NCBI GenBank assembly: GCA_016195025.1
Contig: JACQAL010000042.1
Location: 16,925 to 80,924 of the forward strand
Direction of reading: 5' to 3'
From: Bacteroidota bacterium
Lineage (GTDB): Bacteria; Bacteroidota; Bacteroidia; Palsa-948
Length of the DNA stretch: 64,000 bases
Position 1 is the first letter of the stretch, and each line of letters starts with the position of its first letter. Positions 1,436 through 51,337 of the stretch are shown here, one piece after another. The translations under genes and the position numbers were made by a program. The notes beneath the pieces are model-generated. The model ran no database searches. It saw nothing but the letters and a program-made list of their open reading frames with translations, and was not told the DNA's origin.

Positions 1436-2848
1436 TTATATCAGCCGAATCACTAAGTCAGGGAAAATTCCAAGTGCGAGTGCGAGAACAATTGTAATGA
1501 CGAGCAGAATTTTTGGGAGAAGAGAAACTTCTATAGAAGAAGTGTCTGAAGATTCTTTCAGGTACATTGAAATAATAACGCGGAAATAATAATAAACGCC
1601 AATCAACGAGCCAAGCACTGCAATCAGAACTAACCAAACATATCCGCTTGTTAAAGCAGAAGTGAAAATGTAATACTTCCCAAAAAATCCTGCCAGCGGA
1701 GGAATTCCTGAAAGAGATAACATGGCAATACACATTGCCAAAGCAGCAAGAGGATTTCGTTTTGCTAATCCTGAAAGAGAATCAAATGCAATGGTTGATG
1801 GTTGATGGTTGATGGTTGATGTATTTTCAAGGATGGTGAGAACTGCAAACGCTCCGATAGTGGAAACAGAATATGCGGCAGCATAAAATAAAATTGAACC
1901 TGCTGAATTAGTATTCATCGCGATAATTGCCAATAGCATATATCCCGCATGCGAAATGCTGGAATAGGCGAGCATTCGTTTTACATTTGATTGATAAACG
2001 GCTGTGATATTTCCGAGAAGAATTGTTGCAGCAGACATTATCCAGATAATATTCGTCCATGTTTGCCCGACTCCAGCAAAACAAATGAACAAACGCAGGA
2101 ATGCGGCAAACGCTGCCGTCTTTACAATGCTTGACATAAAGGCGGTTACTTGCGTTGGCGCTCCTGTATATACATCAGGTGCCCAGAAATGAAACGGCAC
2201 TGCCGAAATTTTGAATGACATTCCAATGAGCATGAAAAGAATTCCTCCCGATAATAAAACCCATTGTGCATCGCTCGGCCGTGCCTGCGATGGCATGGGA
2301 GGATTGAGATAAGTTTGAATGGTGTGAATATTGAAAGTCCCGAAGCAACCATAGAGCAGTGCAATTCCGAAAAGTAAAAATCCTGTAGCGAATGCACCCA
2401 TTAAAAAATATTTCAGTGCGGATTCATTTGACGCCAAATCGTCTTTGCGGCTTCCTGCCAGAACGTAAAGTGGTATGGAAAGAATTTCTATTCCGAGGAA
2501 AAGCATCACCATGTTAGAATAAGAAACTAAAATCACCGCTCCGCATAAAGCAAAAAGAACTAATGCAAAATGATCGGTGCGGCTGGTTTCTTCGCGGAAG
2601 AAATTTCCGGACATCATGAACCATAAAAAAGCAGTTCCAATAATAACACAGGAAAATAACAGCGCATAATTATTAAAAGTGAGCATGTCGCTGTAATAAT
2701 GAATATCGGTGTTCCAGTCTTTAACAACACATGCAATCGCTCCTAATAATCCAACCAATACAATCGGAAGCAGAAACTTTTTAAAGCGGAACATTTCCGC
2801 AAGCATTGCGATTACACCCAAACCGGAGAGTATGTACAAAATCTTCAT
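1436..2848 (-). CDS. nuoN: NADH-quinone oxidoreductase subunit N
   Basis: 470 aa polytopic antiporter-like subunit. Position at the end of nuoH-N, overlapping nuoM by 4 nt. Contains an in-frame (GGTTGAT)4 tandem heptamer encoding INHQPSTINHQPST. Confidence 0.93.
   Translation of the reverse strand: MKILYILSGLGVIAMLAEMFRFKKFLLPIVLVGLLGAIACVVKDWNTDIHYYSDMLTFNNYALLFSCVIIGTAFLWFMMSGNFFREETSRTDHFALVLFALCGAVILVSYSNMVMLFLGIEILSIPLYVLAGSRKDDLASNESALKYFLMGAFATGFLLFGIALLYGCFGTFNIHTIQTYLNPPMPSQARPSDAQWVLLSGGILFMLIGMSFKISAVPFHFWAPDVYTGAPTQVTAFMSSIVKTAAFAAFLRLFICFAGVGQTWTNIIWIMSAATILLGNITAVYQSNVKRMLAYSSISHAGYMLLAIIAMNTNSAGSILFYAAAYSVSTIGAFAVLTILENTSTINHQPSTIAFDSLSGLAKRNPLAALAMCIAMLSLSGIPPLAGFFGKYYIFTSALTSGYVWLVLIAVLGSLIGVYYYFRVIISMYLKESSDTSSIEVSLLPKILLVITIVLALALGIFPDLVIRLI
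1791..1821. repeat. (GGTTGAT)4 tandem heptamer inside nuoN
   Basis: Directly visible. The complementary (ATCAACC)n tract also occurs in frame at 43088-43117 in the prolyl oligopeptidase gene. Both encode (S)TINH(Q/P)PST. Confidence 0.9.
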
Positions 2849-4338
2849 AGTTGTTCCATCGGTTGAATTAATTCTGTAATGCGCGCCACGGCAGGTTCGG
2901 CAATGTCAAGCAATGGTTTCGGATAAACTCCCATCGCTATGATGAGAATCACAATTGTTCCAAAAACTATTTTTTCACTCGCAGATAAATCTGTGAAAGT
3001 TGAAGTGAGAGAATTTGTTTCTCCGAGCATCGTGCGTTGATAACTCCTCAGCATGTACACTGCTCCGAGAATTACAGTGAGTCCTGCGAATGCGGCAAAC
3101 CACGCGTTGTATTGATATATTCCGTTGAGCAAAAGAAATTCTCCCACAAATCCGTTTGTGATTGGAAGTGCAACGCTTCCGAGCATTACAATCATAAATC
3201 CCGTGGCAAATCGCGGAGCGATGTTTCTGATTCCTCCGAGTTGTGAAATCTCATTTGTCTTCGTACGGTTGAATAAAATATCTGCGACAAAAAATAATCC
3301 TACCACATTTATTCCGTGCGCAAGCATTTGCATGATTCCGCCTTGAATTCCCTGTGCGGTGAGAGAAAATATTCCGGCAGAAATTAATCCCACGTGAGCG
3401 ATTGACGAATACGCAATCAATCGCTTGAAATCTTTTTGCTGAATGGCAATGATTGATGCATAAAGAATTCCGATGATGGAAAGAATCATTGCCGTGTTTC
3501 CCCAGTGTTGAACTCCATTCGGAACAAGCGGCAGCAGCCAGCGAATCAATCCGTACGTTCCCATCTTCAGCATGATTCCGGAAAGCAACATTGTCCCTTG
3601 TGTTGGAGCAACAACATACGTATCGGGCTGCCATGTGTGAAAAGGAAACACGGGCATTTTAATTGCTAACGCGATAAACATCGCCCAAAAAATCCAGGTT
3701 TGTTCTGAGGAAGAAAGATTTGCTCCAGCAACATATAGCGCATGAATGTCAAAAGTTCTTGCAACTGCCTGCCCGCTTTCAAGAATTACATTATCTGTTT
3801 GGAGATAAACATAAATCAAACCGACAAGCATAAGTAAACTTCCTGTGAGGGTGTAAACAAAAAATTTGAAAGTGATTCGCGCGCGGTTTTCTCCTCCCCA
3901 CAATAAACAGATGAACCAGATGGGAATCAGCGCGAGTTCCCAGAAAATGTAAAATAAAAATCCGTCCTGTGCCGTGAAAACTCCCACGAGAGCTGATTGC
4001 ATTAAAAGTATCAGAGCATAAAAAACATTTTGATTTTTTATTTCTCTATTGAAAGAAGAAAAAATAATCAGCGGAACCAAAACATTTGTGAGAAGAACAA
4101 GAAGTAATGAAATTCCATCCATCGCCACTTTAAAATGAATACCGAGAGATTTTATCCAGACTAAATCCACCATCAACTGTGCGTCAGCATTGATTTTAAA
4201 TTTTGTAAATGCGTAAACAGCCAATGCTAATTGTATAACAGAAAATCCAAGCGCAACTTTCTTCACTTGTTCGGAATTAAAAATCCAAACCAGCAATGAA
4301 GCGAGCAAGGGAAATCCTATGAGTGCAGCAGTATTCAT
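2845..4338 (-). CDS. nuoM: NADH-quinone oxidoreductase subunit M
   Basis: 497 aa antiporter-like subunit with conserved HTWQPD/WLPDA-type motifs. Operon context. Confidence 0.95.
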   Translation of the reverse strand: MNTAALIGFPLLASLLVWIFNSEQVKKVALGFSVIQLALAVYAFTKFKINADAQLMVDLVWIKSLGIHFKVAMDGISLLLVLLTNVLVPLIIFSSFNREIKNQNVFYALILLMQSALVGVFTAQDGFLFYIFWELALIPIWFICLLWGGENRARITFKFFVYTLTGSLLMLVGLIYVYLQTDNVILESGQAVARTFDIHALYVAGANLSSSEQTWIFWAMFIALAIKMPVFPFHTWQPDTYVVAPTQGTMLLSGIMLKMGTYGLIRWLLPLVPNGVQHWGNTAMILSIIGILYASIIAIQQKDFKRLIAYSSIAHVGLISAGIFSLTAQGIQGGIMQMLAHGINVVGLFFVADILFNRTKTNEISQLGGIRNIAPRFATGFMIVMLGSVALPITNGFVGEFLLLNGIYQYNAWFAAFAGLTVILGAVYMLRSYQRTMLGETNSLTSTFTDLSASEKIVFGTIVILIIAMGVYPKPLLDIAEPAVARITELIQPMEQL

Positions 4339-6314
4339 ACTAATTTATACAGCAGAATTAAAATTATTCCAATCACCATCGCGAAAATATAAAAGCCGAT
4401 ATGCCCTGTTTGAATTAAGCGTGCCTGAGAACTTGTCCACGTTACTCCTTCGCCAACAAAATTTACAATCTGGTCAATAAATTTAATTTCAACGAAGCGG
4501 TGAAGTTTATCTGAGAGCCAGTCGGTGGGTTTTGTAAAAAGTTTTGCGTAGAGTTCATCCATGTAATATTTATTGTAAATCATTTTCTGAACAGGATTGA
4601 TGTGCGCAGTATCCGCAGGAGGAACATTTTTATTTTTCACGAAGAGATAATACGCGGAATAAATTGAGGCGAGCGCGGCAATCACAGCCACCGCCATCAG
4701 AATAATTTCTGTAGAATGAGAAAGTTCTTTCGGAAGCATTTTTAATTCGGAAGCAGAGAAAACAGGTTCCAGAAATTCTTTCAGGAAATGTTTTCCGCCC
4801 ATTACTTCCGGGATTCCGAAAATTCCTCCAACTACTGAAAGCACAGCAAGCACTATCAGCGGAATGGTCATTGTCTTCGGAGATTCGTGCAGGTGATGTT
4901 CCTGCTCGTGTGTTCCGCGGAATTTTCCGAAGAATGTTAAATAGAATAAACGGAACATATAGAATGCTGTCATCACCGAACCAAGCACGCCCATAAGCCA
5001 GAAAAATTTATTGTACGCAAATGCGTGACCGAGAATTTCATCCTTCGAGAAAAATCCTGAGAAGGGAAAAATGCCCGAGATGGCAATCGTTCCCATCATG
5101 AACGTAAGAAAAGTAATCCGTAAAGATTTTTTCAAACCGCCCATTTTGCGGATATCCTGCTCACCGCTCATCGCGTGAATTACACTTCCCGCTCCGAGAA
5201 ATAATAATGCTTTGAAGAATGCGTGCGTCATCACATGAAACACTGCGCCTGTGTATGCGCCAACTCCTAATCCTAAAAACATATATCCGAGTTGGCTCAC
5301 GGTAGAGTAGGCGAGAACTTTTTTAATGTCATTCTGAAATAATCCGATTGTTGCGGCAAAAATTCCAGTGAACAATCCAACGCCAGCAACAATATCCATC
5401 GAAATGGGTGCGAGCGTGTATAAAATATTTGAGCGTGCAATCATGTAAATGCCTGCTGTCACCATTGTTGCTGCGTGGATAAGCGCGGAAACAGGAGTGG
5501 GGCCCGCCATCGCATCGGGAAGCCATGTATATAAAGGTATCTGCGCGCTTTTTCCTGTGGCGCCAACAAAAAGCAAAAGTGTAATTGTAATCATCACCGC
5601 CTGGTTGGAGGGAAAAGAACCTGCCGTGTCAAATACTTCAGAATATTTTATGCTTCCGAACGTGAGGAAAATGAGAATGATTCCGAGAATAAAACCTAAA
5701 TCGCCAACGCGGTTCATGATGAATGCTTTGTTCGCGGCTTTGTTGTATTCCGTGTTCTTGAACCAGAATCCAATTAATAAATACGAACAAAGTCCAACTC
5801 CTTCCCATCCGACAAACATTACGAGATAATTATCTCCCAGCACCAGCAGAAGCATGAAGAAGATGAAAAGATTCAGGTGAGAAAAAAATCTGCTGAACGC
5901 AGGATCATCGTGCATGTAGCCGATAGAGTAAACGTGAATGAGAAATCCTACTCCTGTGATGATGAGAAGAAAAATTACCGAAAGAGGGTCGATGAGAAAA
6001 GAAAAATCAGCATTGAAGTTTCCCGCGTGAATCCAGTTGAAAAGATGAACGGTATAAGATGGATTTCCTTTTCCGACCTGAAAAATTTCTCCGACCGCTT
6101 CATCTCCGAATAACTGCCCGAACATTCCGCAGGACATAATAAAACCAATTCCAACAGTTGCGCATGCAATAAGCCCCGCCAATCCTTTGCTCATTTTTTT
6201 TCTCCGATGGAATACGGAGTCCGTAACTTCGTTCGGACCGAAAAAGCCAATGAGTAAAAACCCGATGAGCGGAAGAAGCGGTACGAGCCAGCTGTAATTT
6301 ATTGCTTCAATCAT
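4335..6314 (-). CDS. nuoL: NADH-quinone oxidoreductase subunit L
   Basis: 659 aa, antiporter-like with long C-terminal amphipathic extension. Overlaps nuoM by 4 nt. The N-terminal loop carries a ~40-nt in-frame copy of the dispersed TCCGATGGAATACGG..GTTCGGA repeat. Confidence 0.95.
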   Translation of the reverse strand: MIEAINYSWLVPLLPLIGFLLIGFFGPNEVTDSVFHRRKKMSKGLAGLIACATVGIGFIMSCGMFGQLFGDEAVGEIFQVGKGNPSYTVHLFNWIHAGNFNADFSFLIDPLSVIFLLIITGVGFLIHVYSIGYMHDDPAFSRFFSHLNLFIFFMLLLVLGDNYLVMFVGWEGVGLCSYLLIGFWFKNTEYNKAANKAFIMNRVGDLGFILGIILIFLTFGSIKYSEVFDTAGSFPSNQAVMITITLLLFVGATGKSAQIPLYTWLPDAMAGPTPVSALIHAATMVTAGIYMIARSNILYTLAPISMDIVAGVGLFTGIFAATIGLFQNDIKKVLAYSTVSQLGYMFLGLGVGAYTGAVFHVMTHAFFKALLFLGAGSVIHAMSGEQDIRKMGGLKKSLRITFLTFMMGTIAISGIFPFSGFFSKDEILGHAFAYNKFFWLMGVLGSVMTAFYMFRLFYLTFFGKFRGTHEQEHHLHESPKTMTIPLIVLAVLSVVGGIFGIPEVMGGKHFLKEFLEPVFSASELKMLPKELSHSTEIILMAVAVIAALASIYSAYYLFVKNKNVPPADTAHINPVQKMIYNKYYMDELYAKLFTKPTDWLSDKLHRFVEIKFIDQIVNFVGEGVTWTSSQARLIQTGHIGFYIFAMVIGIILILLYKLV

Positions 6315-7821: not shown

Positions 7822-8853
7822 TTAATTTATTTTTCCAGTCAGCCACATTACAATTCCTGTTATCGCGATATTCAAAATTGCCAGCGGAATCAATCCTTTC
7901 CATCCGAGATTCATCAGTTGGTCATAGCGGAAACGCGGAAGCGTCCAGCGAACCCACATAAATAAAAAGATGAAGAAAAATATTTTCGAGAAAAGAAAAA
8001 ATGTTCCGAGAAGTACGAGCGTATTTGGCTCGTGAATAAATCTTCCGATGAAAGGCATATTGAATCCGCCAAAATAAAGTGTTGCGATTATCGCGGAAGA
8101 AATAAACATGTTGATGTATTCCGCAAAAAGATAAAAACCAAGTTTCATCGAAGAATATTCGGTGTGATAACCTCCAACCAATTCGGTTTCGCATTCTGGT
8201 AAATCGAAGGGTGCGCGGTTGGTTTCCGCAAATGCACAAATGATAAAAATTAAAAATCCGAGCGGCTGGTAAATAATATTCCAATGGCCTCCGTGCTGTT
8301 GCGCTGCGATTTCGCCAATACTCAACGTTCCTGTGGTCATGACCAATGCGATGATGGCAAGACCCATTCCAAGTTCATAAGAAATCATTTGTGAGGAAGC
8401 GCGCAATGCGCCAAGCAGCGCGAACTTATTATTGGAAGCCCATCCTCCAATCATGATTCCGTAAACTCCAACAGAAGTTACTCCAAGCAAATACAAAATT
8501 CCAATGTTTACATCCGCCACCTGTAAAGAATATTCTCCTCCGCCAATATGCAGCGAACTTCCCCATGGAATCACAGTGCCTGTCATGAGGCAAGTGAGCA
8601 TGGAAAGCGAAGGACCGAGAATGAAAAGAAATTTATTTGAAACACCGGGAATGATTTCTTCCTTCATGAACATTTTTAATCCATCGGCAACGGGTTGAAG
8701 AATTCCAAAAGGTCCCGCACGATTAGGTCCCAGCCTATCCTGCAGGAATGCGGCAATTTTTCTTTCCGCGTAAGTAGAATACATCGCTATGAAAAGCGTA
8801 ATTCCAAAGACGATTAGAACCAAAATGGATTTATATATAATTAATGACATCAT
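7822..8853 (-). CDS. nuoH: NADH-quinone oxidoreductase subunit H
   Basis: NuoH/ND1-like membrane subunit. The ORF track extends to 8895, but a start at the internal Met (MMSLIIY, ~8850-8853) removes the overlap with the upstream toxin gene. Confidence 0.9.
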   Translation of the reverse strand: MMSLIIYKSILVLIVFGITLFIAMYSTYAERKIAAFLQDRLGPNRAGPFGILQPVADGLKMFMKEEIIPGVSNKFLFILGPSLSMLTCLMTGTVIPWGSSLHIGGGEYSLQVADVNIGILYLLGVTSVGVYGIMIGGWASNNKFALLGALRASSQMISYELGMGLAIIALVMTTGTLSIGEIAAQQHGGHWNIIYQPLGFLIFIICAFAETNRAPFDLPECETELVGGYHTEYSSMKLGFYLFAEYINMFISSAIIATLYFGGFNMPFIGRFIHEPNTLVLLGTFFLFSKIFFFIFLFMWVRWTLPRFRYDQLMNLGWKGLIPLAILNIAITGIVMWLTGKIN

Positions 8854-9149
8854 TATTTCAATCTGAGTTTTTTGGGATTCTGTCTTCCATCCCAAACAGA
8901 CAATATTTCTAAAACATCCGGCTTCAATTCATAAAACAATAAATAATTTCCGCAAACTGTCACTCTAACATTGTCTTCGTCAGTTGCTCTTCCTAAGTAA
9001 TTATATTTTGCTATGTATCTCACTGTTTCTCTGAATTGTTTTGATAATTTCCTGCTATAGTTTTTATTTCCATTGTGTATAAACCAATATTCAAGAATTG
9101 AACGTCTTTCATGTTTTGCTTTGACTGACCATATTATTCGCTTAGCCAT
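8853..9149 (-). CDS. type II toxin-antitoxin system RelE/ParE-family toxin
   Basis: 98 aa. Pattern typical of RelE/ParE (..ILEYW..NG..Y..KL..F.ETV..I..YP.LG...DEDNVRV...GNYLLFYEL..DVLEILSVWDGRQNP). Overlaps the upstream small gene in classic antitoxin-toxin arrangement. Embedded between nuoG and nuoH. Confidence 0.8.
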   Translation of the reverse strand: MAKRIIWSVKAKHERRSILEYWFIHNGNKNYSRKLSKQFRETVRYIAKYNYLGRATDEDNVRVTVCGNYLLFYELKPDVLEILSVWDGRQNPKKLRLK

Positions 9150-9367
9150 TTGTCTTCGTCTTTTTCCAGTTGCTCATTCGTGATGTATTCCCCGTTTTTG
9201 ATTTGTTGTTTTCCCTTTCGAATTGCTTTGCGCTGTTCGGCAGACAACCTGTAAATATTTTTGCCAGCGCTTGAGTCAAGAATTTTCTTAATTGCTTTAA
9301 GAAATTCTTCGTCATTGATTTCAGAAATCTTATCAATGACCTGATGTTTTAATTGTGCTGTTGTCAT
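9134..9367 (-). CDS. putative addiction-module antitoxin (partner of RelE/ParE)
   Basis: 77 aa acidic/basic small protein immediately upstream of and overlapping the RelE/ParE toxin by 16 nt. ATGA overlap with the preceding gene. Confidence 0.6.
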   Translation of the reverse strand: MTTAQLKHQVIDKISEINDEEFLKAIKKILDSSAGKNIYRLSAEQRKAIRKGKQQIKNGEYITNEQLEKDEDKWLSE

Positions 9368-9657
9368 TTTTTCTTTTTTAATTTTCTAACTTCTAAATTT
9401 ATTTTTGCCCACTTAAAAGTGTGTTTAATTTTTGACTTCGGATGAATCCAATGCTTGTGATCTGGAGGTGTCCAACTTGCTCCAAATCCTCCATATGATT
9501 TTCCTCCGGCATATTTTGATTTTCCATCACTATTATTTCGCCACTGAATAAGAGTTCCATCTGTATCATAATACCAATGATGTCCTTTATGTTTCGCAAT
9601 TCCCTGGCAATTTCCTTTTCTCAAAACAAAAGCATATTTCGAATTGCATTTTCTCAT
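9364..9657 (-). CDS. hypothetical small basic protein with possible HNH/colicin-DNase-like motif
   Basis: ~97 aa, rich in K/G/H/W/Y. Contains HH..YDTDG....WTPPDHKHWIH, reminiscent of the HH..YDMDN..TPKRHIDIH core of colicin E9-type DNases (inference only). Translationally coupled between nuoG and the antitoxin. Confidence 0.4.
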   Translation of the reverse strand: MRKCNSKYAFVLRKGNCQGIAKHKGHHWYYDTDGTLIQWRNNSDGKSKYAGGKSYGGFGASWTPPDHKHWIHPKSKIKHTFKWAKINLEVRKLKKKK

Positions 9658-9658
9658 T

Positions 9659-10678
9659 CTATGCATTATTCGGATTCATTGCTCCTTCTCCCAGTTCCAT
9701 TTTATTTGCTTCTAATCTTTTTTGCTGCTTCGAAACATCTGCTTTCAGATTCTGCAATGCGTTTGCAGTTTCATAATGATTGGCAGAGATTACCGAATGC
9801 CTGTCAATGTGCGAAGGCGCTTCAATTGTCCAGTCGCTGGTTTTCTTGTGGTCGTATCGGCAAGAATTACAAATCCATTCTGTTACTTCTCCGTATTTAT
9901 CTTTTCTTGCAGTCACGCGAAGCACATCTTCACCTTTATACCAAAGGCGAACTTTCCCGCAACACTTATCACAATTGCGGTGGGCGTCCACAGGTTTTGT
10001 AAACCAAACTCTTGATTTGAAACGGAAAGTTTTATCCGTGAGCGCACCCACAGGACAAACATCAATCATGTTTCCGCTCATTTCATTTTCCACCGCGCTT
10101 TGTATATAGGTAGAAATTTCCGAAACATCTCCGCGATTGATTACGCCATGAACTCTGCCCGGACATAATTGTTCCGCCACTTTCACGCAGCGATAACAGA
10201 GAATGCAGCGCGTCATGTGTAATTTTACTTTATCGCCAATGTCAATTTTTTCAAACTCTCTGCGCTTGAACTCATAGCGGGTTTTCATTTTTCCGTGCTC
10301 GTAGCCGAGATTTTGCAAATCACATTCACCCGCCTGGTCGCAAATCGGGCAGTCGAGCGGATGATTTATCAAAAGAAATTCCACCACTCCCGCGCGCGCT
10401 TCAATCACTTCGGGCGAAGTAATATTCTGCACTTCCATTCCGTCCATTACCGTTTGCCTGCAGGAGGGAACAAGTTTCGGCATCGGGCGCGGATCTTTCT
10501 CCGAACCTTTTGAAACTTTCACTAAACACGTTCTGCAATAGCCACCGCTTGTCGCAAGTTTTGTATAGTAGCACATCGCGGGCGGAACAATTTCTCCTCC
10601 TATCATGCGCGCGGCATTCAGGATCGTTGTTCCTTCCGGTACTTCAATTGTTTTTCCGTCTATGGTGACTTTTGCCAT
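9659..10678 (-). CDS. nuoG: NADH-quinone oxidoreductase subunit G, short form (2Fe-2S/4Fe-4S N-terminal module only)
   Basis: 339 aa. N-terminal 2Fe-2S ferredoxin cysteine pattern plus HPLDCPICDQAGEC and CILCYRCV clusters. No molybdopterin-like C-terminal domain. Confidence 0.9.
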   Translation of the reverse strand: MAKVTIDGKTIEVPEGTTILNAARMIGGEIVPPAMCYYTKLATSGGYCRTCLVKVSKGSEKDPRPMPKLVPSCRQTVMDGMEVQNITSPEVIEARAGVVEFLLINHPLDCPICDQAGECDLQNLGYEHGKMKTRYEFKRREFEKIDIGDKVKLHMTRCILCYRCVKVAEQLCPGRVHGVINRGDVSEISTYIQSAVENEMSGNMIDVCPVGALTDKTFRFKSRVWFTKPVDAHRNCDKCCGKVRLWYKGEDVLRVTARKDKYGEVTEWICNSCRYDHKKTSDWTIEAPSHIDRHSVISANHYETANALQNLKADVSKQQKRLEANKMELGEGAMNPNNA

Positions 10679-10800
10679 TTACTTTTTTTCTTTGGGCGTG
10701 TCCCTCGAAGACTCGGGTCGGGCTTTCTGCTTCAATCTTTTTGCGAAACGCAAAAAGGATTTCCACTTCAATCCCTCACGCAAAACTCATTTCATATATA

Positions 10801-11070
10801 TTATTTTTCCCAAAACAATAATACTCCTTCTGTGAATGAACCTCCCAAACCATACGCTGTTCTTTCGTATCTACTTGCACTTTCTGTTCCCATTGAAGCA
10901 AATCCTGTATTAATGCCTTGAACTTGTTTTAATTTCCATCCATCATCATTCATTTTTTGAATGTGGATATTAAGTCTTTCAGTTTCATTTACATGAATTC
11001 TTGGAGATAAAGAGCCATCAATTGACTTTAAATTAAGAAGACTTTCTTCCGATGTTTTAATATCCCTCAT
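10801..11070 (-). CDS. hypothetical protein (AT-rich accessory cassette, gene 2)
   Basis: 89 aa. ATGA-overlaps the upstream 158-aa ORF. Sits inside the nuo operon between nuoF and nuoG. No recognisable domain. Confidence 0.45.
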   Translation of the reverse strand: MRDIKTSEESLLNLKSIDGSLSPRIHVNETERLNIHIQKMNDDGWKLKQVQGINTGFASMGTESASRYERTAYGLGGSFTEGVLLFWEK

Positions 11071-11543
11071 CGTATCAAAAATGCTATGACCAGCCCATTC
11101 ATTTTTTTCCCACCACTGTCAAATTTTTTAAATAGTTTATTTTCTTCACTAGAAAATTCTTTTTGCTTAAATAGAAAATGTTTTTTCTTTTCTTTTAATA
11201 ATTCTAACAACATTATATTCCTTTTCTTTTTATGATAACTATTGTCATTAGGATAATGATATTCCATAGCATTTATCTTGCTCAAAATATCATACAATTT
11301 GATTTGCCACTTTATGAACCTATCAAATAACTTTTTATCTTCAACAAAAAATTCTTTTTGCCTAGATAATATATGCTGTTCCATTTCTTTTATTAATTCC
11401 TCTAATCTCAATATGGAATTTCCTTTCTCTTTCTTTACTTCATTATCTTTTTCTTTTTCTTTGATTATATTATCTAAAGTACTTAAACTGAGTATTTGTC
11501 TTTCTTCAAGTTCAAAGGAGAAAAATGTAACAGTGTTTTTCAT
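11067..11543 (-). CDS. hypothetical protein with internal repeat (AT-rich accessory cassette, gene 1)
   Basis: 158 aa, very AT-rich coding DNA compared with flanking nuo genes. Two internal repeats (..QKEFFVEDKKLFDRFIKW.. / ..QKEFSSEENKLFKKFD..). Confidence 0.45.
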   Translation of the reverse strand: MKNTVTFFSFELEERQILSLSTLDNIIKEKEKDNEVKKEKGNSILRLEELIKEMEQHILSRQKEFFVEDKKLFDRFIKWQIKLYDILSKINAMEYHYPNDNSYHKKKRNIMLLELLKEKKKHFLFKQKEFSSEENKLFKKFDSGGKKMNGLVIAFLIR

Positions 11544-11553
11544 TTCTTGTTAT

Positions 11554-12906
11554 TTAACTATTTGTGACTTCTAATTGATTCACTCTGTAATAATGTTTCA
11601 CATCTTTCACATTCTTTCCGTTTCTAACATACTCTTCAAACTCACTTCTGAAATGTCTGATTGCTGCGGCAACCGGCCATGCAGCGGCTTCGCCCAGCGG
11701 ACAAATTGTTTTGCCTTCAATTTTTCCCTGTATGTCCCAAAGCAAATCAATATCTGCTATGGTTGCGTGTCCATCTAAAAATTTATGCAAAACTTTTTCC
11801 ATCCATCCTGTTCCTTCGCGGCAAGGCGAACATTGTCCGCAGGATTCGTGATGATAGAAGCGCGTGAAGTTCCAGAGATTTTTTACTACGCTGGTGTCTT
11901 CGTCCATCACAATGAATCCGCCAGAGCCAAGCATGGTGCCAGTAATAAATCCCCCATCACTTAAACTTTCGTAAGACATTAAGCGCGGTTCGCCTTTTGC
12001 AGTTTTCAAAATTAATTCTGTGGGAAGGATTGGTACGGATGAACCTCCTGCTACAACTGCTTTCAATTTTTTCCCGTTGCGAATTCCTCCACAATATTTA
12101 TCCGAATAAATAAATTCTTCAACAGGAACTCCGAGTTCAATTTCGTAAACACCGGGTTTATTAATATGTCCGCCTGCGGAAATTAATTTTGTGCCGGTAG
12201 ATTTTCCTATTCCGATTTTCGCGTATTCATCTCCCGTCATATTTATAATCGGAACAACAGCGGCAATTGTTTCCACATTATTTACTACGGTCGGTCTGTC
12301 CCACACACCTTTCACAGCGGGAAACGGAGGTTTGATTCTTGGATTTCCTCTTTTTCCTTCGAGCGATTCAATCAATCCGGTTTCTTCTCCGCAGATATAC
12401 GCTCCCGCCCCAACATGCATGTACACATCCAGATAGTAACCGCTTCCTAAAATATTTTTTCCCAGAAGATTTGCATCGTACGCTTCCTGAATTGCTTTTT
12501 CAAGAATGTGATACACGTACATCATTTCGCCACGTATATATATGTAGGAAACATTTGCGCCAAGCGCGAACGAAGAAATAATCATCCCCTCTACGAGAAT
12601 GTGCGGCTTCATCTCCATTAAAAATCTATCCTTGAAAGTGCCAGGCTCCGATTCATCGGCATTGCAAACCAAATGGCGGGGAACTCCGGGAGGTTTTGCG
12701 ATGAAACTCCATTTCATTCCCGTTGGAAATCCCGCTCCGCCTCTTCCGCGTAAGCCGGATTTTTTTACTTCCTCCACAATTTCTTCGGGCTTCATCTTCA
12801 GCGCTTTTTCCAAAGTCGCATAGCCGCCATTTGCTTTATAGCCGGAGAGAGATTGAATTCCGGGTTTGTCTAAATCGTTTATGAGTAACTGAGCCACAGA
12901 TTTCAC
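11554..12906 (-). CDS. nuoF: NADH-quinone oxidoreductase subunit F (51 kDa, FMN/NADH-binding)
   Basis: 450 aa. GxGxxG-rich NADH/FMN region (GRGGAGFPTG) and C-terminal 4Fe-4S cysteine motif (ESCGQCSPCREG). Apparent GTG start. Confidence 0.95.
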   Translation of the reverse strand: MKSVAQLLINDLDKPGIQSLSGYKANGGYATLEKALKMKPEEIVEEVKKSGLRGRGGAGFPTGMKWSFIAKPPGVPRHLVCNADESEPGTFKDRFLMEMKPHILVEGMIISSFALGANVSYIYIRGEMMYVYHILEKAIQEAYDANLLGKNILGSGYYLDVYMHVGAGAYICGEETGLIESLEGKRGNPRIKPPFPAVKGVWDRPTVVNNVETIAAVVPIINMTGDEYAKIGIGKSTGTKLISAGGHINKPGVYEIELGVPVEEFIYSDKYCGGIRNGKKLKAVVAGGSSVPILPTELILKTAKGEPRLMSYESLSDGGFITGTMLGSGGFIVMDEDTSVVKNLWNFTRFYHHESCGQCSPCREGTGWMEKVLHKFLDGHATIADIDLLWDIQGKIEGKTICPLGEAAAWPVAAAIRHFRSEFEEYVRNGKNVKDVKHYYRVNQLEVTNS

Positions 12907-12919
12907 AGATTTACACTGA

Positions 12920-13336
12920 TTATAAAATAACTCGTTTGAACTTCAAAGAATTTTCTCCGAAGTTTATTAGTAATCCAAGTTTCAATTTAGAAACTGCAAG
13001 ATAGTTTATGACTTGACGATAATGGTCTTCAAGCACTCCTTCCTGCGCTTTAACTTCTAAAATAATTTTTTCGTCAATTACGAAATCGGCAAAATAATAA
13101 TGAGGTAAAATTGTTCCTTTATATTCTACTTCATACTTCCTTTCTCTTTCGAAGGAGATATTTTTATTTCTCAATTCAAATTCAATCGCGTCCTTATAGA
13201 CAATCTCGGATAATCCCCTCCCCAATACTTTATGAACTTCCATGCACAAGCCAATGATCTCAAAAGAATCTTCTTGCATGGGATATTTATCCTTTGCGTA
13301 GTAAATTTCCTGTGCGTCCTGTAATATCAATTCCAT
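12920..13336 (-). CDS. GxxExxY family protein (PD-(D/E)XK-like)
   Basis: 138 aa with the diagnostic G-L-S-E-I-V-Y (GxxExxY) motif. Inserted between nuoE and nuoF. Confidence 0.8.
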   Translation of the reverse strand: MELILQDAQEIYYAKDKYPMQEDSFEIIGLCMEVHKVLGRGLSEIVYKDAIEFELRNKNISFERERKYEVEYKGTILPHYYFADFVIDEKIILEVKAQEGVLEDHYRQVINYLAVSKLKLGLLINFGENSLKFKRVIL

Positions 13337-13371
13337 TGGCTGTTAATCTGTGTTCTCTGTGTAATCAGTGG

Positions 13372-13926
13372 CTATTGTTTTATCTCCGAATGATTTTTAA
13401 TTCTTTCTTTTCTATAGTGAGAAATCTGTTCGCCTTTGTTTTTATAATCGTCCAGAATCTTTTCGCACTTTTCAAAACTTAAATTTTCGTGATACGTTTC
13501 GCCAATCTGCATCATCGGTGCTGTTCCGCAGGAAGCCAGGCATTCAACAGTCTTCAGCGTGAACATTCCGTCAGCAGTTGTTTGCCCTTCTTTTATATTT
13601 AATTTTTTCTCGATGTGCTTTACTAAATCTTCTGCGCCCATCAGCCAGCAGGGACCGGTTCTGCAAACCTCAATCACGCATTTGCCAACAGGTTTTAAAT
13701 TGAACATGGAATAAAATGAAGCTACTTCGTAAACTTCTATCGGTTGAATTTTCAGAATCGAAGCCACATAATCCATCACCGGTGCGCTGAGCCAGCCGTC
13801 AAATTCCGCCTGCGCGAGATGGAGAATCGGAAGTATCGCGGACTTCTGTTTGCCTTCGGGATAGCGCCTCATCAACTTGTTGCAGAGTGCAAGCGCTTCG
13901 TCAGAGAATCTTATTTGTTTTGCCAC
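13372..13926 (-). CDS. nuoE: NADH-quinone oxidoreductase subunit E (24 kDa, 2Fe-2S)
   Basis: 184 aa. Thioredoxin-like 2Fe-2S cysteines (CRTGPC ... CLASCGTAP). First gene of the nuo cluster in this window. Confidence 0.93.
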   Translation of the reverse strand: MAKQIRFSDEALALCNKLMRRYPEGKQKSAILPILHLAQAEFDGWLSAPVMDYVASILKIQPIEVYEVASFYSMFNLKPVGKCVIEVCRTGPCWLMGAEDLVKHIEKKLNIKEGQTTADGMFTLKTVECLASCGTAPMMQIGETYHENLSFEKCEKILDDYKNKGEQISHYRKERIKNHSEIKQ

Positions 13927-19460: not shown

Positions 19461-19526
19461 TAGTTCGTTGTCAGTGGTTAGTTGAAGCAACTGACAACTT
19501 TCCACTGACAACTAACAAATCCCCCT

Positions 19527-22242: not shown

Positions 22243-22326
22243 TTATCGGATATTTGAAAAGTCATGCTGAACTTGTTTCAGCATCCGTATAGATTCCGAA
22301 ACAAGTTCGGAATGACAGCCGAAAAA

Positions 22327-36119: not shown

Positions 36120-36253
36120 GTCAGAAGAATTTAGCGGAACAAAGATACTGTTAATGTTTCAATCAACGAAAAACTACCGCCCGTTTGTTGTGAGCAGTTG
36201 GTTGTTAATTGTGGCGAGATAGATTAAAGATGAAAAAGAAGGCGGAAAGGTTG

Positions 36254-36423
36254 CATCTGCGAATATGTTTCATCCCTATGGGACGAATAAAAACCGAATC
36301 TGTCCGATGGAATACGGACTCCGCAACTTTGTTCGGAGCGAATGAAACGCATAGAACAATACGCAACTCGTACATTTGTTTCATCCCGATACATCGGGGC
36401 GTGAGGATTCATATTCGCAGATG
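36254..36423. mobile_element. MITE-like element with perfect 14-bp terminal inverted repeats
   Basis: CATCTGCGAATATG at 36254-36267 and its exact reverse complement CATATTCGCAGATG at 36410-36423. The interior carries the dispersed TCCGATGGAATACGG...AACTTTGTTCGGAGCGAA core and a duplicated GTTTCATCCC. Confidence 0.5.
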
Positions 36424-36493
36424 ACTTGAGTATATATGGGGAAACAGACCGGATATTATTCCACCAGCACTTTCTCCGTAAAAACTTTCAAAG

Positions 36494-36560
36494 AAACTCT
36501 CCCTCTTTCCCTCTCTTTACAAAGAGAAGGATGTCCGTCAACTGACGGACAGGGTGAGTT
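36494..36560. repeat. dispersed repeat family 2 (ACTCTCCC..CTCTCTTTnnAAAGAGAG..hairpin..GGGTGAGTT)
   Basis: Related copies at 49044-49104 and 53274-53335. Each has a different internal perfect hairpin (TCCGTCAACTGACGGA; CCCCTCTCTTTTTAAAAGAGAGGGG; CATCAATCCCGCCttacGGGGCGGGATTGATG). Confidence 0.7.
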
Positions 36561-36750
36561 ACTCAATCACCACCTTCTCCGTATGGCATCGAACTTCTGT
36601 CCCCCTTTTTGAAGGGGGAATAAGGGGGATGTTCGGTGTTTCACACACCTCCACTAAAAACAATCCCTTCCCGAAAGGCGAAACATCCACTTCTATTTTC
36701 TTTTGAAACTTTTTTTCTAAAACTTTTTGTCCGAGGGGGACAGTACAGAT

Positions 36751-37929: not shown

Positions 37930-38066
37930 GAAACATTTTGTTTGGTTGACGTTTTGATTTCGCACTTCAGAGCAAAACGCAACGAGCCATTGGAACAACA
38001 AAAGTAAAAATTTATTTTGCAAAAGCAAATGAATGAGCGGATGAGAAGAATTGCATTCATTTCTTT

Positions 38067-38432
38067 CTACGGCTTCCACCCCAGTTTATTTTTCTTCCTG
38101 CTCCATTCTTCCTCTCTCTCCTTATCTTCCAGTTCTATAATAAAGTCACGCAGGGCTGTACTTGGCTGCGTGTCGGGCGTAAATGCTTTGGTAGTTACCG
38201 CCACCAGAAACCCGTGCTTAATGAGGTCAATTTTTGCCTCGCGTATGCTTTTCGCGCCCAGCATTTTCAGCAGGCGCTTGCGTTTGTTTTTAACCGTACC
38301 CAGCGCCATGCCGGTTTTTTTCACTATTTCTTTTTCCTGTAAGCCCTCTTCGCTCAGCGCGGCAATTTGCAGCAAACGGGGTTCTTTGTCAAATAAAATA
38401 ACAAGCATTTCTTTTTTTGTTAAGTAGGCCAT
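38067..38432 (-). CDS. LuxR/GerE-type helix-turn-helix transcriptional regulator (stand-alone)
   Basis: C-terminal ..LSEREKEI....GM....IA..L..S..TV..H...I..KLG-like HTH (LSEEGLQEKEIVKKTGMALGTVKNKRKRLLKMLG). Confidence 0.7.
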   Translation of the reverse strand: MAYLTKKEMLVILFDKEPRLLQIAALSEEGLQEKEIVKKTGMALGTVKNKRKRLLKMLGAKSIREAKIDLIKHGFLVAVTTKAFTPDTQPSTALRDFIIELEDKEREEEWSRKKNKLGWKP

Positions 38433-38637
38433 GCGGGGAGCAATTATACTGAACGAACATTAGTTTGCAAAAAATCAATGAGTCAGCAATCCACAGTCAT
38501 CAGTCGGCAATTGCTGACTGCTCCGAACAAAGTTAACTCGTCTCCGACTTGTCGGAGCGGTGCCGTATTCCATCGGACCGACTGCCAACTGCCTGCTATT
38601 TACCATTAATCTCTATTTTCTGAAAAGCCCCAAGGGC

Positions 38638-38668
38638 TTTGCATTGTTATTTCTCCGTTTTATATTTG
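38638..38668 (+). promoter_or_regulatory. Bacteroidetes-type sigma-A promoter (-33 TTTG / -7 TAnnTTTG)
   Basis: TTTG at 38638-38641, a 19-nt spacer, then TATATTTG at 38661-38668, ~30 nt upstream of the ATG at 38698. Confidence 0.55.
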
Positions 38669-38697
38669 CCGCTTTATTATAAAATGCAGGAATAAAC

Positions 38698-39120
38698 ATG
38701 CAGGTTATTTATAAGGGCAAACTAAAAGATACAACAAGAGAAATGAATGCTATTTTTCAAGAGCAGAAGTATGCTTTCCACACGCAGAAAGACATTTTCC
38801 ACGAGCAGAAAGATGCTTTCCACACGCAGAAAGATGCTTTCCACGAGCAGAAAGACACTTTCCACACGCAGAAAGACGCTTTTCACGAGCAGAAAGATGC
38901 TTTCCACATGCTGTTGGATGCTTTCCACGAGCAGAAAGTATCTTTCCACACGCAGAAAGACGCTTTCCACGAGCAGAAAGTATCCTTCCACACGCAGAAA
39001 GACATTTTCCACGAGCAGAAAGATGCTTTCCACATGCTGGTGGATGCTTTCCACGAGCAGAAAGATACCATCAGCATTCGGATGAATTCCCTGATAAGAA
39101 TGATTCTTCAAAAACAATAG
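38698..39120 (+). CDS. tandem-heptad (HEQKDAF/HTQKDAF)x15 repeat protein, hypothetical
   Basis: 140-aa ORF with a non-repetitive N-terminal (MQVIYKGKLKDTTREMNAIFQ) and C-terminal tail (ISIRMNSLIRMILQKQ). Preceded by a canonical promoter. All other frames are also open across the repeat. Confidence 0.4.
   Translation: MQVIYKGKLKDTTREMNAIFQEQKYAFHTQKDIFHEQKDAFHTQKDAFHEQKDTFHTQKDAFHEQKDAFHMLLDAFHEQKVSFHTQKDAFHEQKVSFHTQKDIFHEQKDAFHMLVDAFHEQKDTISIRMNSLIRMILQKQ
38758..39072. repeat. 15 x 21-bp tandem repeat (alternating CACGAGCAGAAAGATGCTTTC / CACACGCAGAAAGACGCTTTC)
   Basis: Directly visible. 42-bp higher-order periodicity. Each unit contains the small palindrome GAAAGAnGCTTTC. Confidence 0.95.
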
Positions 39121-39151
39121 ACATTATTCAAAATAAGAAACTATGTGTATG

Positions 39152-39230
39152 TTGTCATTTCGACCGAAGGGAGAAATCTCCTCATTCAGGGGGAGATTTC
39201 TCACCCTCAAAGCAGGGTTCGAAATGACAA
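39152..39230. terminator. large imperfect hairpin (12-bp + 10-bp stems with an internal side hairpin) downstream of the repeat ORF
   Basis: TTGTCATTTCGA...AGAAATCTCC / GGAGATTTCT...TCGAAATGACAA. The right arm has an extra CACCCTcaaagCAGGGT stem-loop. Confidence 0.5.
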
Positions 39231-39322
39231 ACCTCTATAAATATCTAATCTGAATATAAATATCTAATCTGAATAATGTCTAATCAATAATTCTTACCCA
39301 ATAACCCTTACTCCTTAAAATT

Positions 39323-40012
39323 ATGGCAACAAAAAAAGGAACTAACAAAGTGCAGGTGGTGCTTCCGGTGGAATCAAAAACCAATACCGGCATTTTCATT
39401 CCCAAGGCACAGCATATTCACGATTTGCTGCAGGGAAACAACAATTTTCCCACTATTCAGAACGACCTTCCGCAACTGCAGGCGGATATAAACCTGCTTA
39501 CTGCCGATGAAGGCGATGTGCTCAACCGCAAGCCGGGCGCAGCGGCTGCTGCCAACGAAAAGAAATTAGAAGTGTATAATCAATTAGACGCCCTGCGCGC
39601 AGTGGTGCAAAAGGTGGTGAACCAGCCCGCAAACATTGCCAACGCAGAGGCAATGGTGGAAGGGGCGGGAATGGAAATAAAAGGAAGAGGTTCAAGAACC
39701 AAAGATGACCTTACCGTGCGCAACGGAGATATGAGCGGCTCGTGCGATTTAATTGCCAAAGCCGCAGCCAAAAAAGCCGCTTACCTCTGGCAGCAAAGCA
39801 CCGATAACATTAACTTTACGTATTGCGACCCCATCTGCACACTCGAAACCAAAAATACGGTGTTTAATCTCGCAGTGAAAACAGATTATTGGTTCCGCTT
39901 CCGCGTCATTCTTCCGGTAAAAGCGAGAAAAAGCAAAACCAGCCGCAAATTGAAAAAAGAAAAAGCAGCCGATGCCGACTGGAGCCAGAGTGTGAAGATT
40001 ACGGTGGTGTAG
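39323..40012 (+). CDS. hypothetical protein
   Basis: 229-aa ORF with good coding look and no recognisable domain. Ala-rich middle, basic C-terminal tail. Confidence 0.5.
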   Translation: MATKKGTNKVQVVLPVESKTNTGIFIPKAQHIHDLLQGNNNFPTIQNDLPQLQADINLLTADEGDVLNRKPGAAAAANEKKLEVYNQLDALRAVVQKVVNQPANIANAEAMVEGAGMEIKGRGSRTKDDLTVRNGDMSGSCDLIAKAAAKKAAYLWQQSTDNINFTYCDPICTLETKNTVFNLAVKTDYWFRFRVILPVKARKSKTSRKLKKEKAADADWSQSVKITVV

Positions 40013-40040
40013 TTACGGATAACTAATCTTTGCGAATCTG

Positions 40041-40101
40041 TCCGATGGAATACGGCACCGCTCCGACAAGTCGGAGACGAGTCAACTTTGTTCGGAGCGA
40101 A
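40041..40101. repeat. dispersed palindromic repeat, family 1 copy (TCCGATGGAATACGG..CTCCGACAAGTCGGAG..AACTTTGTTCGGAGCGAA)
   Basis: Near-identical reverse-complement copy at 38521-38577. Shorter variants at 36303-36342 and, in frame in nuoL, at 6194-6233. Confidence 0.8.
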
Positions 40102-40212
40102 TAACAGCCATTCGCTTCATTCGTCTGCTCATTCGTACTTTCTTGTTTTCCCGCTTTTCTATTTCGTACTTTCGCCTTTTCAATTCTTCCCATAGGGATA
40201 AAATATTTTTCA

Positions 40213-51262: not shown

Positions 51263-51337
51263 CCCCTGAAATGGAATGTTGGAATGCTGGGGTGTTTCCA
51301 AATATTCCATTCTTCCAATCTTCCATCATTCCTTCTC

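What the first reader, a model, noticed from the sequence alone, without database searches (positions are those of the whole stretch)
6194..6233. Dispersed palindromic repeat (family 1) inserted in frame in nuoL and present at four or more loci, including inside a MITE with 14-bp terminal inverted repeats
The ~40-60-nt core TCCGATGGAATACGG(ac/..)CTCCG..AACTTTGTTCGGAGCGAA occurs at 6194-6233 (inside nuoL, encoding FGPNEVTDSVFHRR in the first periplasmic loop), at 36303-36342, at 38521-38577 (reverse orientation) and at 40041-40101. The 38521-38577 and 40041-40101 copies share an extra perfect palindrome, CTCCGACAAGTCGGAG. The 36303-36342 copy lies within a 170-bp element bounded by perfect inverted repeats CATCTGCGAATATG/CATATTCGCAGATG (36254-36423). 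This looks like an active or recently active MITE/REP family that tolerates in-frame coding insertion, analogous to Rickettsia palindromic elements. That is unusual for Bacteroidota.
Basis: seen in the sequence. Interest (0 to 1): 0.65.

Follow-up and report, generated by a model that had tools for sequence, protein, structure and literature searches.

The report
Tiny mobile hairpin repeat inside nuoL
A 35-base hairpin-forming DNA repeat, scattered through the genome of an uncultured groundwater Bacteroidota bacterium, has recently inserted in frame into the respiratory gene nuoL and added 12 amino acids to a loop; this is a new family of a known kind of small mobile repeat (REP-like) whose mobilising enzyme is unknown.

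Summary
The repeat core, here called E, is TCCGATGGAATACGGACTCCGTAACTTTGTTCGGA (35 nt). Short copies lie at 6203-6237 and 36303-36337. A 56-nt variant lies at 38522-38577 (-) and 40041-40096 (+).

The nuoL copy is a real, recent insertion. All 121 full-length NuoL homologues lack the 12 residues PNEVTDSVFHRR, including members of the same 90% cluster. Three relatives show the empty DNA site TTCGG^. The filled site carries exactly 36 extra nt (E plus one G) and no longer target duplication. AlphaFold puts the insert in a disordered loop between TM1 and TM2.

Six further metagenome loci, mostly groundwater, carry an identical E, often inside heptamer tandem arrays. A close relative has a diverged copy with two compensatory stem changes, so the hairpin itself is conserved. 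E was absent from viral contigs, from a GTDB species-representative scan and from 1.4 Mb of relatives' DNA.

The best reading is a REP-like, non-autonomous mobile palindrome, not a TIR/TSD MITE. The 170-bp "MITE" is a single-copy region with a real 14-bp inverted repeat but no second copy. No transposase was found. Intragenic REPs and Bacteroidetes REP/RAYT systems are already published, so this is a new member of a known kind. Interest is moderate.

The parts
6203..6237 (+). E copy inside nuoL (TCCGATGGAATACGGAGTCCGTAACTTCGTTCGGA; 2 differences from consensus). The inserted block is 36 nt (6202-6237 or 6203-6238, with a one-base ambiguity). It encodes PNEVTDSVFHRR on the minus strand.
   Evidence: empty sites in L001, L002, L123; 0 of 121 homologues have residues in the insert columns; the same filled allele in two independent read-set assemblies.
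4335..6314 (-). nuoL (NADH-quinone oxidoreductase subunit L, 659 aa; NCBI MBI3501854.1). The ORF is intact. The insert is residues 27-38, between TM1 and TM2.
   Evidence: AlphaFold2 model: helices 10-25 and 43-77 are confident, and residues 30-38 have pLDDT below 50.
36303..36337 (+). Short E copy (1 difference from consensus). It is intergenic and flanked by octamer-like units CCGAATCT / GCGAATGA.
38522..38577 (-). Long (56-nt) E variant. It has the same 15-nt and 14-nt ends, but the centre ACTCCGT is replaced by 28 nt containing the palindrome CTCCGACAAGTCGGAG. It lies inside a GGCAGTY heptamer array.
40041..40096 (+). Long (56-nt) E variant, 29 nt downstream of the stop codon of ORF 39323-40012.
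38520..40098 (.). Composite: the two long E copies in inverted orientation (69-nt arms, 93% identical) enclose 1441 nt. The enclosed DNA holds a 21-nt tandem-repeat ORF and a 229-aa helical + FN3 protein. No recombinase or transposase lies inside.
   Evidence: I1; no family hits; FN3 fold; homologue L118 is not flanked by E.
36254..36423 (.). 170-bp intergenic region bounded by a perfect 14-bp inverted repeat and containing one E copy. It is single-copy in all data available and has no flanking target duplication.

Best explanation
E is a very small, non-autonomous mobile palindromic element of the REP type. It is a 35-nt imperfect hairpin with an outer stem TCCGA/TCGGA, an internal loop, an inner stem TACGG/CCGTA and a triloop ACT.

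What is shown:
- E is copied to new sites as a 36-nt block (E plus one G/C base) without a longer target duplication.
- One copy entered nuoL in frame.
- The hairpin stems are conserved through compensatory change.

What is inferred:
- E lands mostly in intergenic DNA, often inside short tandem heptamer or octamer arrays.
- Because it is 36 nt long and open in 5 of 6 frames, it can survive inside a gene when it hits a tolerant loop, as in nuoL.
- It is probably mobilised in trans by an enzyme encoded elsewhere in the genome that recognises a single-stranded DNA hairpin. The most likely candidate is a Y1 HUH nuclease of the RAYT / IS200-IS605 kind.
For: Mobility and boundaries:
- There are exactly 36 extra nt in nuoL relative to three relatives' empty sites.
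- 0 of 121 homologues carry the insert.
- Members of the same 90% cluster are 647, 643 and 647 aa, against 659 aa here.

Dispersal:
- 4 copies in 64 kb.
- 6 distinct metagenome loci carry E, identical even at the 8 positions the search pattern left free.
- Removing E+1 nt restores heptamer phase in L004, L007, L008 and at window 38522. Such arrays are common without E.

Structure:
- E and the diverged copy L123:18090-18122 predict the same fold.
- The two differ by two double compensatory changes: outer A-T to C-G and inner T-A to G-C. Their loops are largely different.

Not strand-specific:
- Copies lie in both orientations relative to the flanking genes.

Tolerated:
- The nuoL ORF is intact and the insert lies in a low-confidence loop between two confident helices.

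Precedent:
- REPs inside ORFs are documented (PMC3733652).
- In-frame REP insertions and Bacteroidetes TnpA_REP subclasses with atypical hairpins are documented (PMC6006769).
Against: - No RAYT, IS200-type or any other transposase gene lies in the window or in any E-bearing contig.
- E lacks the GT[AG]G foot of canonical REPs, and the short form lacks the CGTC tag.
- The predicted hairpin of the consensus is weak (-5.6 kcal/mol, z = -1.3).
- The genome-wide copy number is unknown, because the rest of the MAG could not be fetched.
- Only about 10 independent copies are known, so target rules are tentative.
- Four sites also look like 8-bp direct repeats flanking E (L004, L008, L007, window 38522). 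A TSD-making enzyme could produce this, although the nuoL empty site contradicts it.
Confidence: 0.6

Rival explanations
1. E is a classical MITE: an internally deleted derivative of a DDE-transposase insertion sequence. Its ends are TCCGATGG... and ...TTGTTCGGA. The short and long forms are deletion derivatives of different length. It inserts with an approximately 8-bp target duplication.
For: Short and long variants share both termini and differ only in the middle. L004 and L008 have perfect 8-nt direct repeats flanking E (GAGATGTG, GAGATATG). L007 and window 38522 have 7/8 matches.
Against: The only site with verified empty alleles (nuoL, three relatives) shows 36 extra nt and at most 1 nt duplicated. 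The terminal inverted repeats are only 5 bp. The apparent 8-nt repeats all lie in pre-existing heptamer arrays, which are frequent without E. Five other copies show no flanking repeat. No parent IS was seen. The 170-bp inverted-repeat-bounded unit is single-copy.
Confidence: 0.1
2. E spreads without a dedicated enzyme. Replication template switching, gene conversion or recombination between hairpin-forming, tandem-repeat-rich intergenic regions copies the hairpin into new places.
For: E lies within tandem arrays and next to other hairpins. The nuoL target TTCGGA resembles E's own end (G)TTCGGA. Copies 36303, 40041 and L005 share extra flanking bases AATCTG...GCG. The long variant can be read as two overlapping TCCGA-N25-TCGGA 35-mers.
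Against: Boundaries are sharp and identical in unrelated sequence contexts. Identity is 35/35 across contigs of 37-48% GC from several samples. The nuoL site is not in an array and shares only about 5 nt of homology with E.
Confidence: 0.15
3. E is mainly a functional cis-element kept by selection, such as a protein-binding palindrome or an RNA/DNA hairpin acting in termination or mRNA stability. The nuoL copy is an accident.
For: Copies from different samples are perfectly conserved. Stem changes in the L123 variant are compensatory. Most copies lie close to gene ends.
Against: Copies lie in both orientations relative to transcription. No Rfam family matches. The consensus hairpin is weak and has no T-tract. 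The relative L123/L124 has an empty site at nuoL, so the element is not at a fixed orthologous position. A functional role would not explain how copies arise, so this is compatible with the best explanation rather than exclusive of it.
Confidence: 0.1
4. The nuoL copy is an assembly artefact: a repeat-induced chimera.
For: Logan contigs break at or near E copies.
Against: The MAG contig and two independent read-set assemblies (SRR12113409 and SRR12113410) carry the same left junction and the full E. The flanks resume the nuoL frame at exactly the same codon.
Confidence: 0.02

Closest known systems
REP / REPIN elements with RAYT (TnpA_REP) nucleases (E. coli, Pseudomonas; Bacteroidetes subclasses 2.4 and 2.6 in PMC6006769; GTAG/CGTC families in PMC3733652)
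   Same: A 20-65-nt imperfect palindrome, dispersed and mostly extragenic. Copies occur singly and as inverted pairs. It is occasionally found in frame inside genes. The sequence family is lineage-restricted. Stems are conserved by compensatory change.
   Different: E has no GT[AG]G foot, and the short form has no CGTC tag. No RAYT was seen. The copy number is unknown. Insertion adds one G/C base. E is often embedded in heptamer arrays.
Rickettsia palindromic elements (RPE)
   Same: A palindromic repeat inserted in frame in conserved housekeeping genes. It adds a peptide segment at a surface or loop position while the ORF stays intact.
   Different: RPEs are about 100-150 bp, occur in obligate intracellular Alphaproteobacteria, and have many coding insertions. 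E is 35-36 nt, occurs in free-living groundwater Bacteroidota, and has one confirmed coding insertion among about 10 copies. There is no sequence relationship.
IS200/IS605-derived palindrome-associated elements (PATEs), moved by Y1 HUH single-strand transposition
   Same: Hairpin-based, with no target duplication to speak of. There is a possible preference for a short motif 5' of the insertion point: TG or GG in 9 of 10 copies, if nuoL is read on its coding strand.
   Different: Those elements carry distinct left and right subterminal hairpins and are longer. E is a single, nearly symmetric hairpin. Its orientation relative to the flank is not fixed (the nuoL copy is reversed).
Small dispersed repeats of cyanobacteria (Elhai et al. 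2008, Genome Res 18:1484; known to me only from memory and from citations in PMC3116915 and PMC3733652, as the paper is not held)
   Same: Very small (about 21-27 nt) mobile repeats that insert into other repeats and occasionally into genes.
   Different: Different phylum and sequence. I could not read the paper to compare target rules.

Membership tests
REP (repetitive extragenic palindrome) | Imperfect palindrome of about 20-65 nt able to form a hairpin | tested here: met
   35 nt. The predicted fold has two 5-bp stems and a triloop. The variant in L123 keeps the fold through 2 compensatory pairs.
REP (repetitive extragenic palindrome) | Many dispersed copies within one genome, mostly between genes | tested here: inconclusive
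   4 copies in 64 kb, 3 of them intergenic. 5 of 6 metagenome copies are intergenic. The rest of the MAG is not retrievable.
REP (repetitive extragenic palindrome) | Conserved tetranucleotide foot (GT[AG]G) or CGTC tag at one end (PMC6006769, PMC3733652) | tested here: not met
   The sequences have no GTAG/GTGG or CTAC at either end, except by chance in the L007 flank. CGTC occurs only inside the 28-nt centre of the long variant. E starts with T-CCGA on both strands, which resembles the CnGA foot reported for class 3 TnpA_Y1 structures (PMC6006769). That is a lead, not a test.
REP (repetitive extragenic palindrome) | Cognate RAYT/TnpA_REP gene flanked by inverted REPs (REPtron) | not testable with these tools
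   No Y1_Tnp or other transposase was found among window ORFs. The only E-flanked segment encodes an FN3 protein.
MITE | Terminal inverted repeats of about 15-30 bp and a size of about 70-300 bp | tested here: not met
   The terminal inverted repeat is 5 bp (TCCGA/TCGGA). Length is 35 or 56 nt.
MITE | Target-site duplication of fixed length | tested here: not met
   The nuoL filled and empty sites show 36 extra nt with at most 1 nt duplicated. The 170-bp unit has flanks GTTG / ACTT and no duplication.
MITE | Multiple copies of the whole unit (for the 170-bp inverted-repeat-bounded candidate) | tested here: not met
   No second copy of the unit or of its 14-mer ends (2 mismatches allowed) in the window or in 1.8 Mb of fetched loci. 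The genome-wide answer is still unknown.
Rickettsia palindromic elements | In-frame insertion into conserved protein genes, with the ORF preserved | tested here: met
Rickettsia palindromic elements | Membership by sequence family, size (about 100-150 bp) and host (Rickettsia) | tested here: not met
   E is 35 nt, the host is Bacteroidota, and no Rfam hit was found.
IS200/IS605-type PATE | Insertion without duplication, 3' of a fixed short target motif and in a fixed orientation | tested here: inconclusive
   There is no duplication longer than 1 nt. The 5' flank ends in TG or GG in 8 of 10 copies in the E+ orientation, and in 9 of 10 if nuoL is read reversed. The sample is too small and orientation is not fixed.

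The most novel reading that the evidence does not exclude
E may be one of the smallest self-defined mobile units known (35 nt). Its insertion site would be set by base pairing between the single central nucleotide of the hairpin and the base duplicated at the target.

Seven of nine distinct copies read g|..C..|g. The nuoL copy, whose centre has mutated to G, reads c|..G..|c.

On this reading a one-base 'guide' would programme target choice for an unknown single-strand DNA nuclease. Tandem heptamer arrays would be its preferred landing pads.
Probability: 0.1. Interest if true: 0.65.

Novelty: new member of a known kind. Interest (0 to 1): 0.4.

Why it matters
This is a clean, dated example of a 36-nt palindromic repeat entering an essential respiratory gene in frame. 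Empty and filled alleles are both available from close relatives. Such events show how small mobile repeats can lengthen protein loops. The case extends intragenic REP-type insertions to an uncultured groundwater Bacteroidota lineage.

The sharply defined boundaries, the identical copies in several metagenomes and a compensatory variant in a sister genome make E a usable handle. With it one could look for the cognate nuclease, possibly one of the poorly understood Bacteroidetes TnpA_REP subclasses. One could also ask why these genomes are full of heptamer arrays.

It does not reveal a new category of element.

Tried and rejected
- **E as a known RNA.** Rfam gave nothing on E at gathering threshold, nor at E <= 5 over 36100-40300.
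- **E in phages.** 28 hits to the 15-mer in viral contigs were all chance matches with no second half.
- **Named genomes.** The strict pattern gave 0 hits in GTDB species representatives. nhmmer over 1.4 Mb of 80 relatives' nuo loci found nothing.
- **Retrieving other contigs of the source MAG.** Not on record. Only same-strain Logan fragments were obtained.
- **Empty sites for the 36303, 38522 and 40041 copies.** The closest orthologue contig, L125, ends 67 nt after the gene and has different neighbours. L118 lacks E but is not clearly orthologous.
- **The 229-aa ORF enclosed by the long copies as a hidden HUH enzyme.** Its 'HIH' motif is not conserved (NIH in P0122, TIY in P0125). The fold is helical plus FN3. 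Rejected.
- **Translational bypass of the insert.** Not needed. There is no stop codon, and candidate take-off and landing codons would be out of frame (read directly from the sequence).
- **PDB sequence alignment to place the insert.** The N-terminus aligned poorly, so AlphaFold was used instead.
Full report
**1. What is in the sequence**

The repeat is real. The 15-mer TCCGATGGAATACGG occurs four times exactly. Its partner AACTTTGTTCGGAG occurs at the same four places with at most 2 mismatches. A profile search finds no further copy in the 64 kb.

Aligning the copies and comparing them with copies from elsewhere defines a 35-nt core, which I call E: TCCGATGGAATACGGACTCCGTAACTTTGTTCGGA.
- Short copies lie at 6203-6237 (2 differences) and 36303-36337 (1 difference).
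- At 40041-40096 (+) and 38522-38577 (-) a 56-nt variant keeps both ends but replaces the centre ACTCCGT by 28 nt containing CTCCGACAAGTCGGAG.
- The long form can be read as two overlapping TCCGA-N25-TCGGA 35-mers.
- The two long copies are arms of a 69-nt, 93% inverted repeat enclosing 1441 nt.

**2. The nuoL copy is a recent in-frame insertion**

ORF 4335-6314 (-) is NuoL, 659 aa, annotated in NCBI as MBI3501854.1.
- Other members of its 90%-identity cluster are 647, 643 and 647 aa.
- None of 121 full-length homologues has any residue in the columns of PNEVTDSVFHRR.
- At the DNA level, three relatives show the empty site ...TTCGG|AAAAAAAATG (L001), ...TGGGG|GAAGAAAATG (L002) and ...TTCGG|CAAGAAAC (L123).
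- The window has exactly 36 extra nt there. This is E in reverse orientation plus one G, with one base of positional ambiguity and no longer duplication.

Two independent assemblies of the source read sets (SRR12113409 and SRR12113410) carry the same filled allele. An assembly chimera is therefore very unlikely.

An AlphaFold2 model built on 51 sequences predicts confident helices at residues 10-25 and 43-77. The insert lies in the coil between them, with pLDDT below 50 at residues 30-38. The ORF and the operon are intact.

The flanking loop (GKKMSKG) is lysine-rich. From the known topology of NuoL and the positive-inside rule I expect it to be cytoplasmic, not periplasmic. This is my own inference and was not tested.

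**3. Distribution elsewhere**

- A strict two-part pattern found nothing in one genome per GTDB species.
- The same pattern found seven contigs (six distinct loci) in public metagenomes. Several come from Hainich groundwater well H41, and one comes from Ga0247727.
- In all of them E is identical at all 35 positions, including the 8 positions the pattern left free. The contigs range from 37 to 48% GC.
- The 15-mer alone hits 28 viral contigs, all by chance.
- nhmmer finds no E in 1.4 Mb around nuoL of 80 Bacteroidota relatives. The best of these relatives is only 66% identical in NuoL.

The source is an NCBI MAG 'Bacteroidetes bacterium' with locus tags HY063_. Its other contigs could not be fetched, so the genome-wide copy number is unknown.

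A close relative, with NuoL in the same 90% cluster, is present in metagenome Ga0247727 (L124). This is the same sample as the E-bearing contig L006. The relative's nuoL site is empty.

**4. The hairpin is what is conserved**

The relative's contig L123 carries TCCGCTGAAAGACGGAGTCCGTCATCTTGCGGA at 18090-18122. Read in reverse, it aligns with E stem for stem.
- The outer stem is TCCGC/GCGGA instead of TCCGA/TCGGA.
- The inner stem is GACGG/CCGTC instead of TACGG/CCGTA.
- The triloop ACT is unchanged, while the internal-loop bases are largely different.

That gives two double compensatory changes in ten stem pairs. Both sequences are predicted to adopt the same two-stem hairpin: -5.6 kcal/mol for E and -9.4 kcal/mol (z = -3.5) for the variant.

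A generic double-stem pattern occurs in 1.8 Mb of fetched DNA only at E copies and at this variant.

Copies lie in either orientation relative to neighbouring genes. No Rfam family matches. The conserved object is therefore more likely a DNA hairpin than a strand-specific RNA.

**5. Insertion sites**

In the E+ orientation the flanks are g|E|g in 7 of 9 distinct short-type copies. The nuoL copy, whose central base is G rather than C, has c|E|c. L006 has c|E|g. This centre/flank complementarity is a single observation and only a lead.

Removing E plus one base restores uninterrupted tandem units in four cases:
- L004: GAGATGT x3.5
- L008: GAGATAT
- L007: TTGGCAG x4
- window 38522: GGCAGTY

It also restores two octamer-like units at 36303 and 40041. 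Such heptamer and octamer arrays are frequent in this window without E.

The same four sites can also be read as 8-bp direct repeats flanking E. The nuoL empty site and five other copies contradict a regular 8-bp duplication.

E is open in 5 of 6 frames (read directly from the sequence), and both E+1 (36 nt) and the long form+1 (57 nt) are multiples of three. Any insertion therefore keeps the reading frame. The L006 copy lies in a 101-aa hypothetical ORF in the same frame as in nuoL (SPNKVTESVFHRR). That ORF has no family support.

**6. What it is not**

The '170-bp MITE' is bounded by a genuine 14-bp inverted repeat: 0 of 20 shuffles gave any such pair. It folds better than shuffles (z = -3.9). 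However, it has no target duplication. No second copy of the unit or of its ends exists in the window or in any fetched locus. The nuoL and metagenome copies show that E moves on its own.

E itself fails the MITE criteria: a 5-bp terminal inverted repeat, 35 nt in length, and at most 1 nt duplicated.

No transposase is encoded in the window. The segment enclosed by the two long copies holds:
- a 21-nt tandem-repeat ORF;
- a 229-aa protein with a helical N-terminal half and an FN3-like C-terminal half. It has three paralogues in the MAG. Its 'HIH' motif is not conserved.

A homologue of the 229-aa protein in L118 is not flanked by E.

**7. Most likely mechanism**

The anatomy matches REP/REPIN-type elements and the single-strand hairpin logic of Y1 HUH nucleases (RAYT, IS200/IS605):
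- a short imperfect palindrome with conserved stems;
- sharp ends and essentially no target duplication;
- a mainly extragenic location next to other hairpins;
- inverted pairs;
- lineage-restricted sequence.

The literature supports this as a possibility:
- REPs located entirely within ORFs of known proteins (PMC3733652);
- in-frame REP insertions within genes (PMC6006769);

E lacks the GT[AG]G and CGTC tags that define the two large REP superfamilies. Its CCGA start on both strands resembles the CnGA foot described for class 3 TnpA_Y1. That is a resemblance, not a test.

Mobility, boundaries, hairpin conservation and tolerance in NuoL are shown. The enzyme, the single-strand mechanism and the target rule are inferred. 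I put about 0.6 on this model, about 0.15 on enzyme-independent copying (template switching or conversion among hairpin-rich repeats), about 0.1 on a DDE-type MITE, and about 0.1 on a primarily functional cis-element.

**8. Novelty and score**

Small palindromic repeats that insert in frame are known: RPEs, and intragenic GTAG/CGTC REPs. REP/RAYT systems are known in Bacteroidetes.

What is new here:
- the sequence family;
- its host lineage (uncultured groundwater Bacteroidota with no close GTDB representative in the scan);
- the very small, precisely delimited unit;
- the clean filled/empty pair in a complex I gene;
- the association with heptamer arrays.

I file it as a new member of a known kind, with interest 0.4.

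Noticed in passing
window 1791-1821, 19488-19518, 21501-21531, 36040-76, 43086-43117, 45179-45217, 49210-49274, 51272-51332, 58164-88; also L004, L007, L008: Intergenic DNA is rich in short tandem heptamer or octamer arrays (ATGGTTG, TGCCAAC, CATCAAC, AATGGAAT and others). They are often arranged as array-loop-inverted array hairpins. The same units recur at distant loci in inverted orientation (I2 and I6). Their origin and function are unknown.
   Followed up: partly
window 39155-39232: A different palindromic module: outer inverted repeat GTCATTTCGA..TCGAAATGAC enclosing GGAGAAATCTCC / GGGAGATTTCTC. It looks like another small dispersed hairpin family. There is only one copy in the window.
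   Followed up: no
window 22262-22318: Two adjacent hairpins, GTCATGCTGAACTTGTTTCAGCATC and ATTCCGAAACAAGTTCGGAATGAC. The second starts like E in reverse (TCCGAAACAAGTT against TCCGAACAAAGTT). A similar mini-hairpin, TCCGAAACAGCCCTTCGGA, lies upstream of the 229-aa homologue in L118 (positions 30-48).
   Followed up: no
window 38754-39066 (ORF 38698-39120): A 21-nt (3 x 7) tandem repeat with 14.5 copies, readable as a 140-aa ORF with HEQKDAF / HTQKDAF heptad peptide repeats. It lies between the two inverted long E copies. It is unclear whether it codes for a protein.
   Followed up: partly
window 39323-40012: A 229-aa protein of unknown family, with a helical N-terminal half and an FN3-like C-terminal half. 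There are three paralogues (76-80% identity) in the same MAG and very few homologues in 5.8 billion proteins.
   Followed up: partly
window 8853-9666, 10680-11585, 12892-13372 compared with L123: The nuo operon of this genome is interrupted by small extra genes absent from the close relative L123: a ParE-type toxin pair, a 158-aa ORF and a 138-aa ORF. L123 in turn has an extra 129-aa gene between nuoH and nuoI.
   Followed up: no
window 10712-10786 (-): A Flavo-1 RNA (Rfam RF01705, 57.9 bits) lies inside the nuo cluster. It sits in one of the segments that L123 lacks.
   Followed up: no
L119 / L120 ends (window 6200): Both independent Logan contigs stop 3 nt past the nuoL E copy, at the start of the A8 run. 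The last 31-mers there are unique to this copy, so repeat collapse does not explain the break. Possible causes are homopolymer or allelic variation at the junction.
   Followed up: no
window 36267-36290 and 40183-40199: A further small palindrome, TCCCTATGGGA, occurs in inverted orientation at two sites near E copies (I14). A related hairpin, CCCGATACATCGGG, is preceded by the same GTTTCATCCC at 36377.
   Followed up: no
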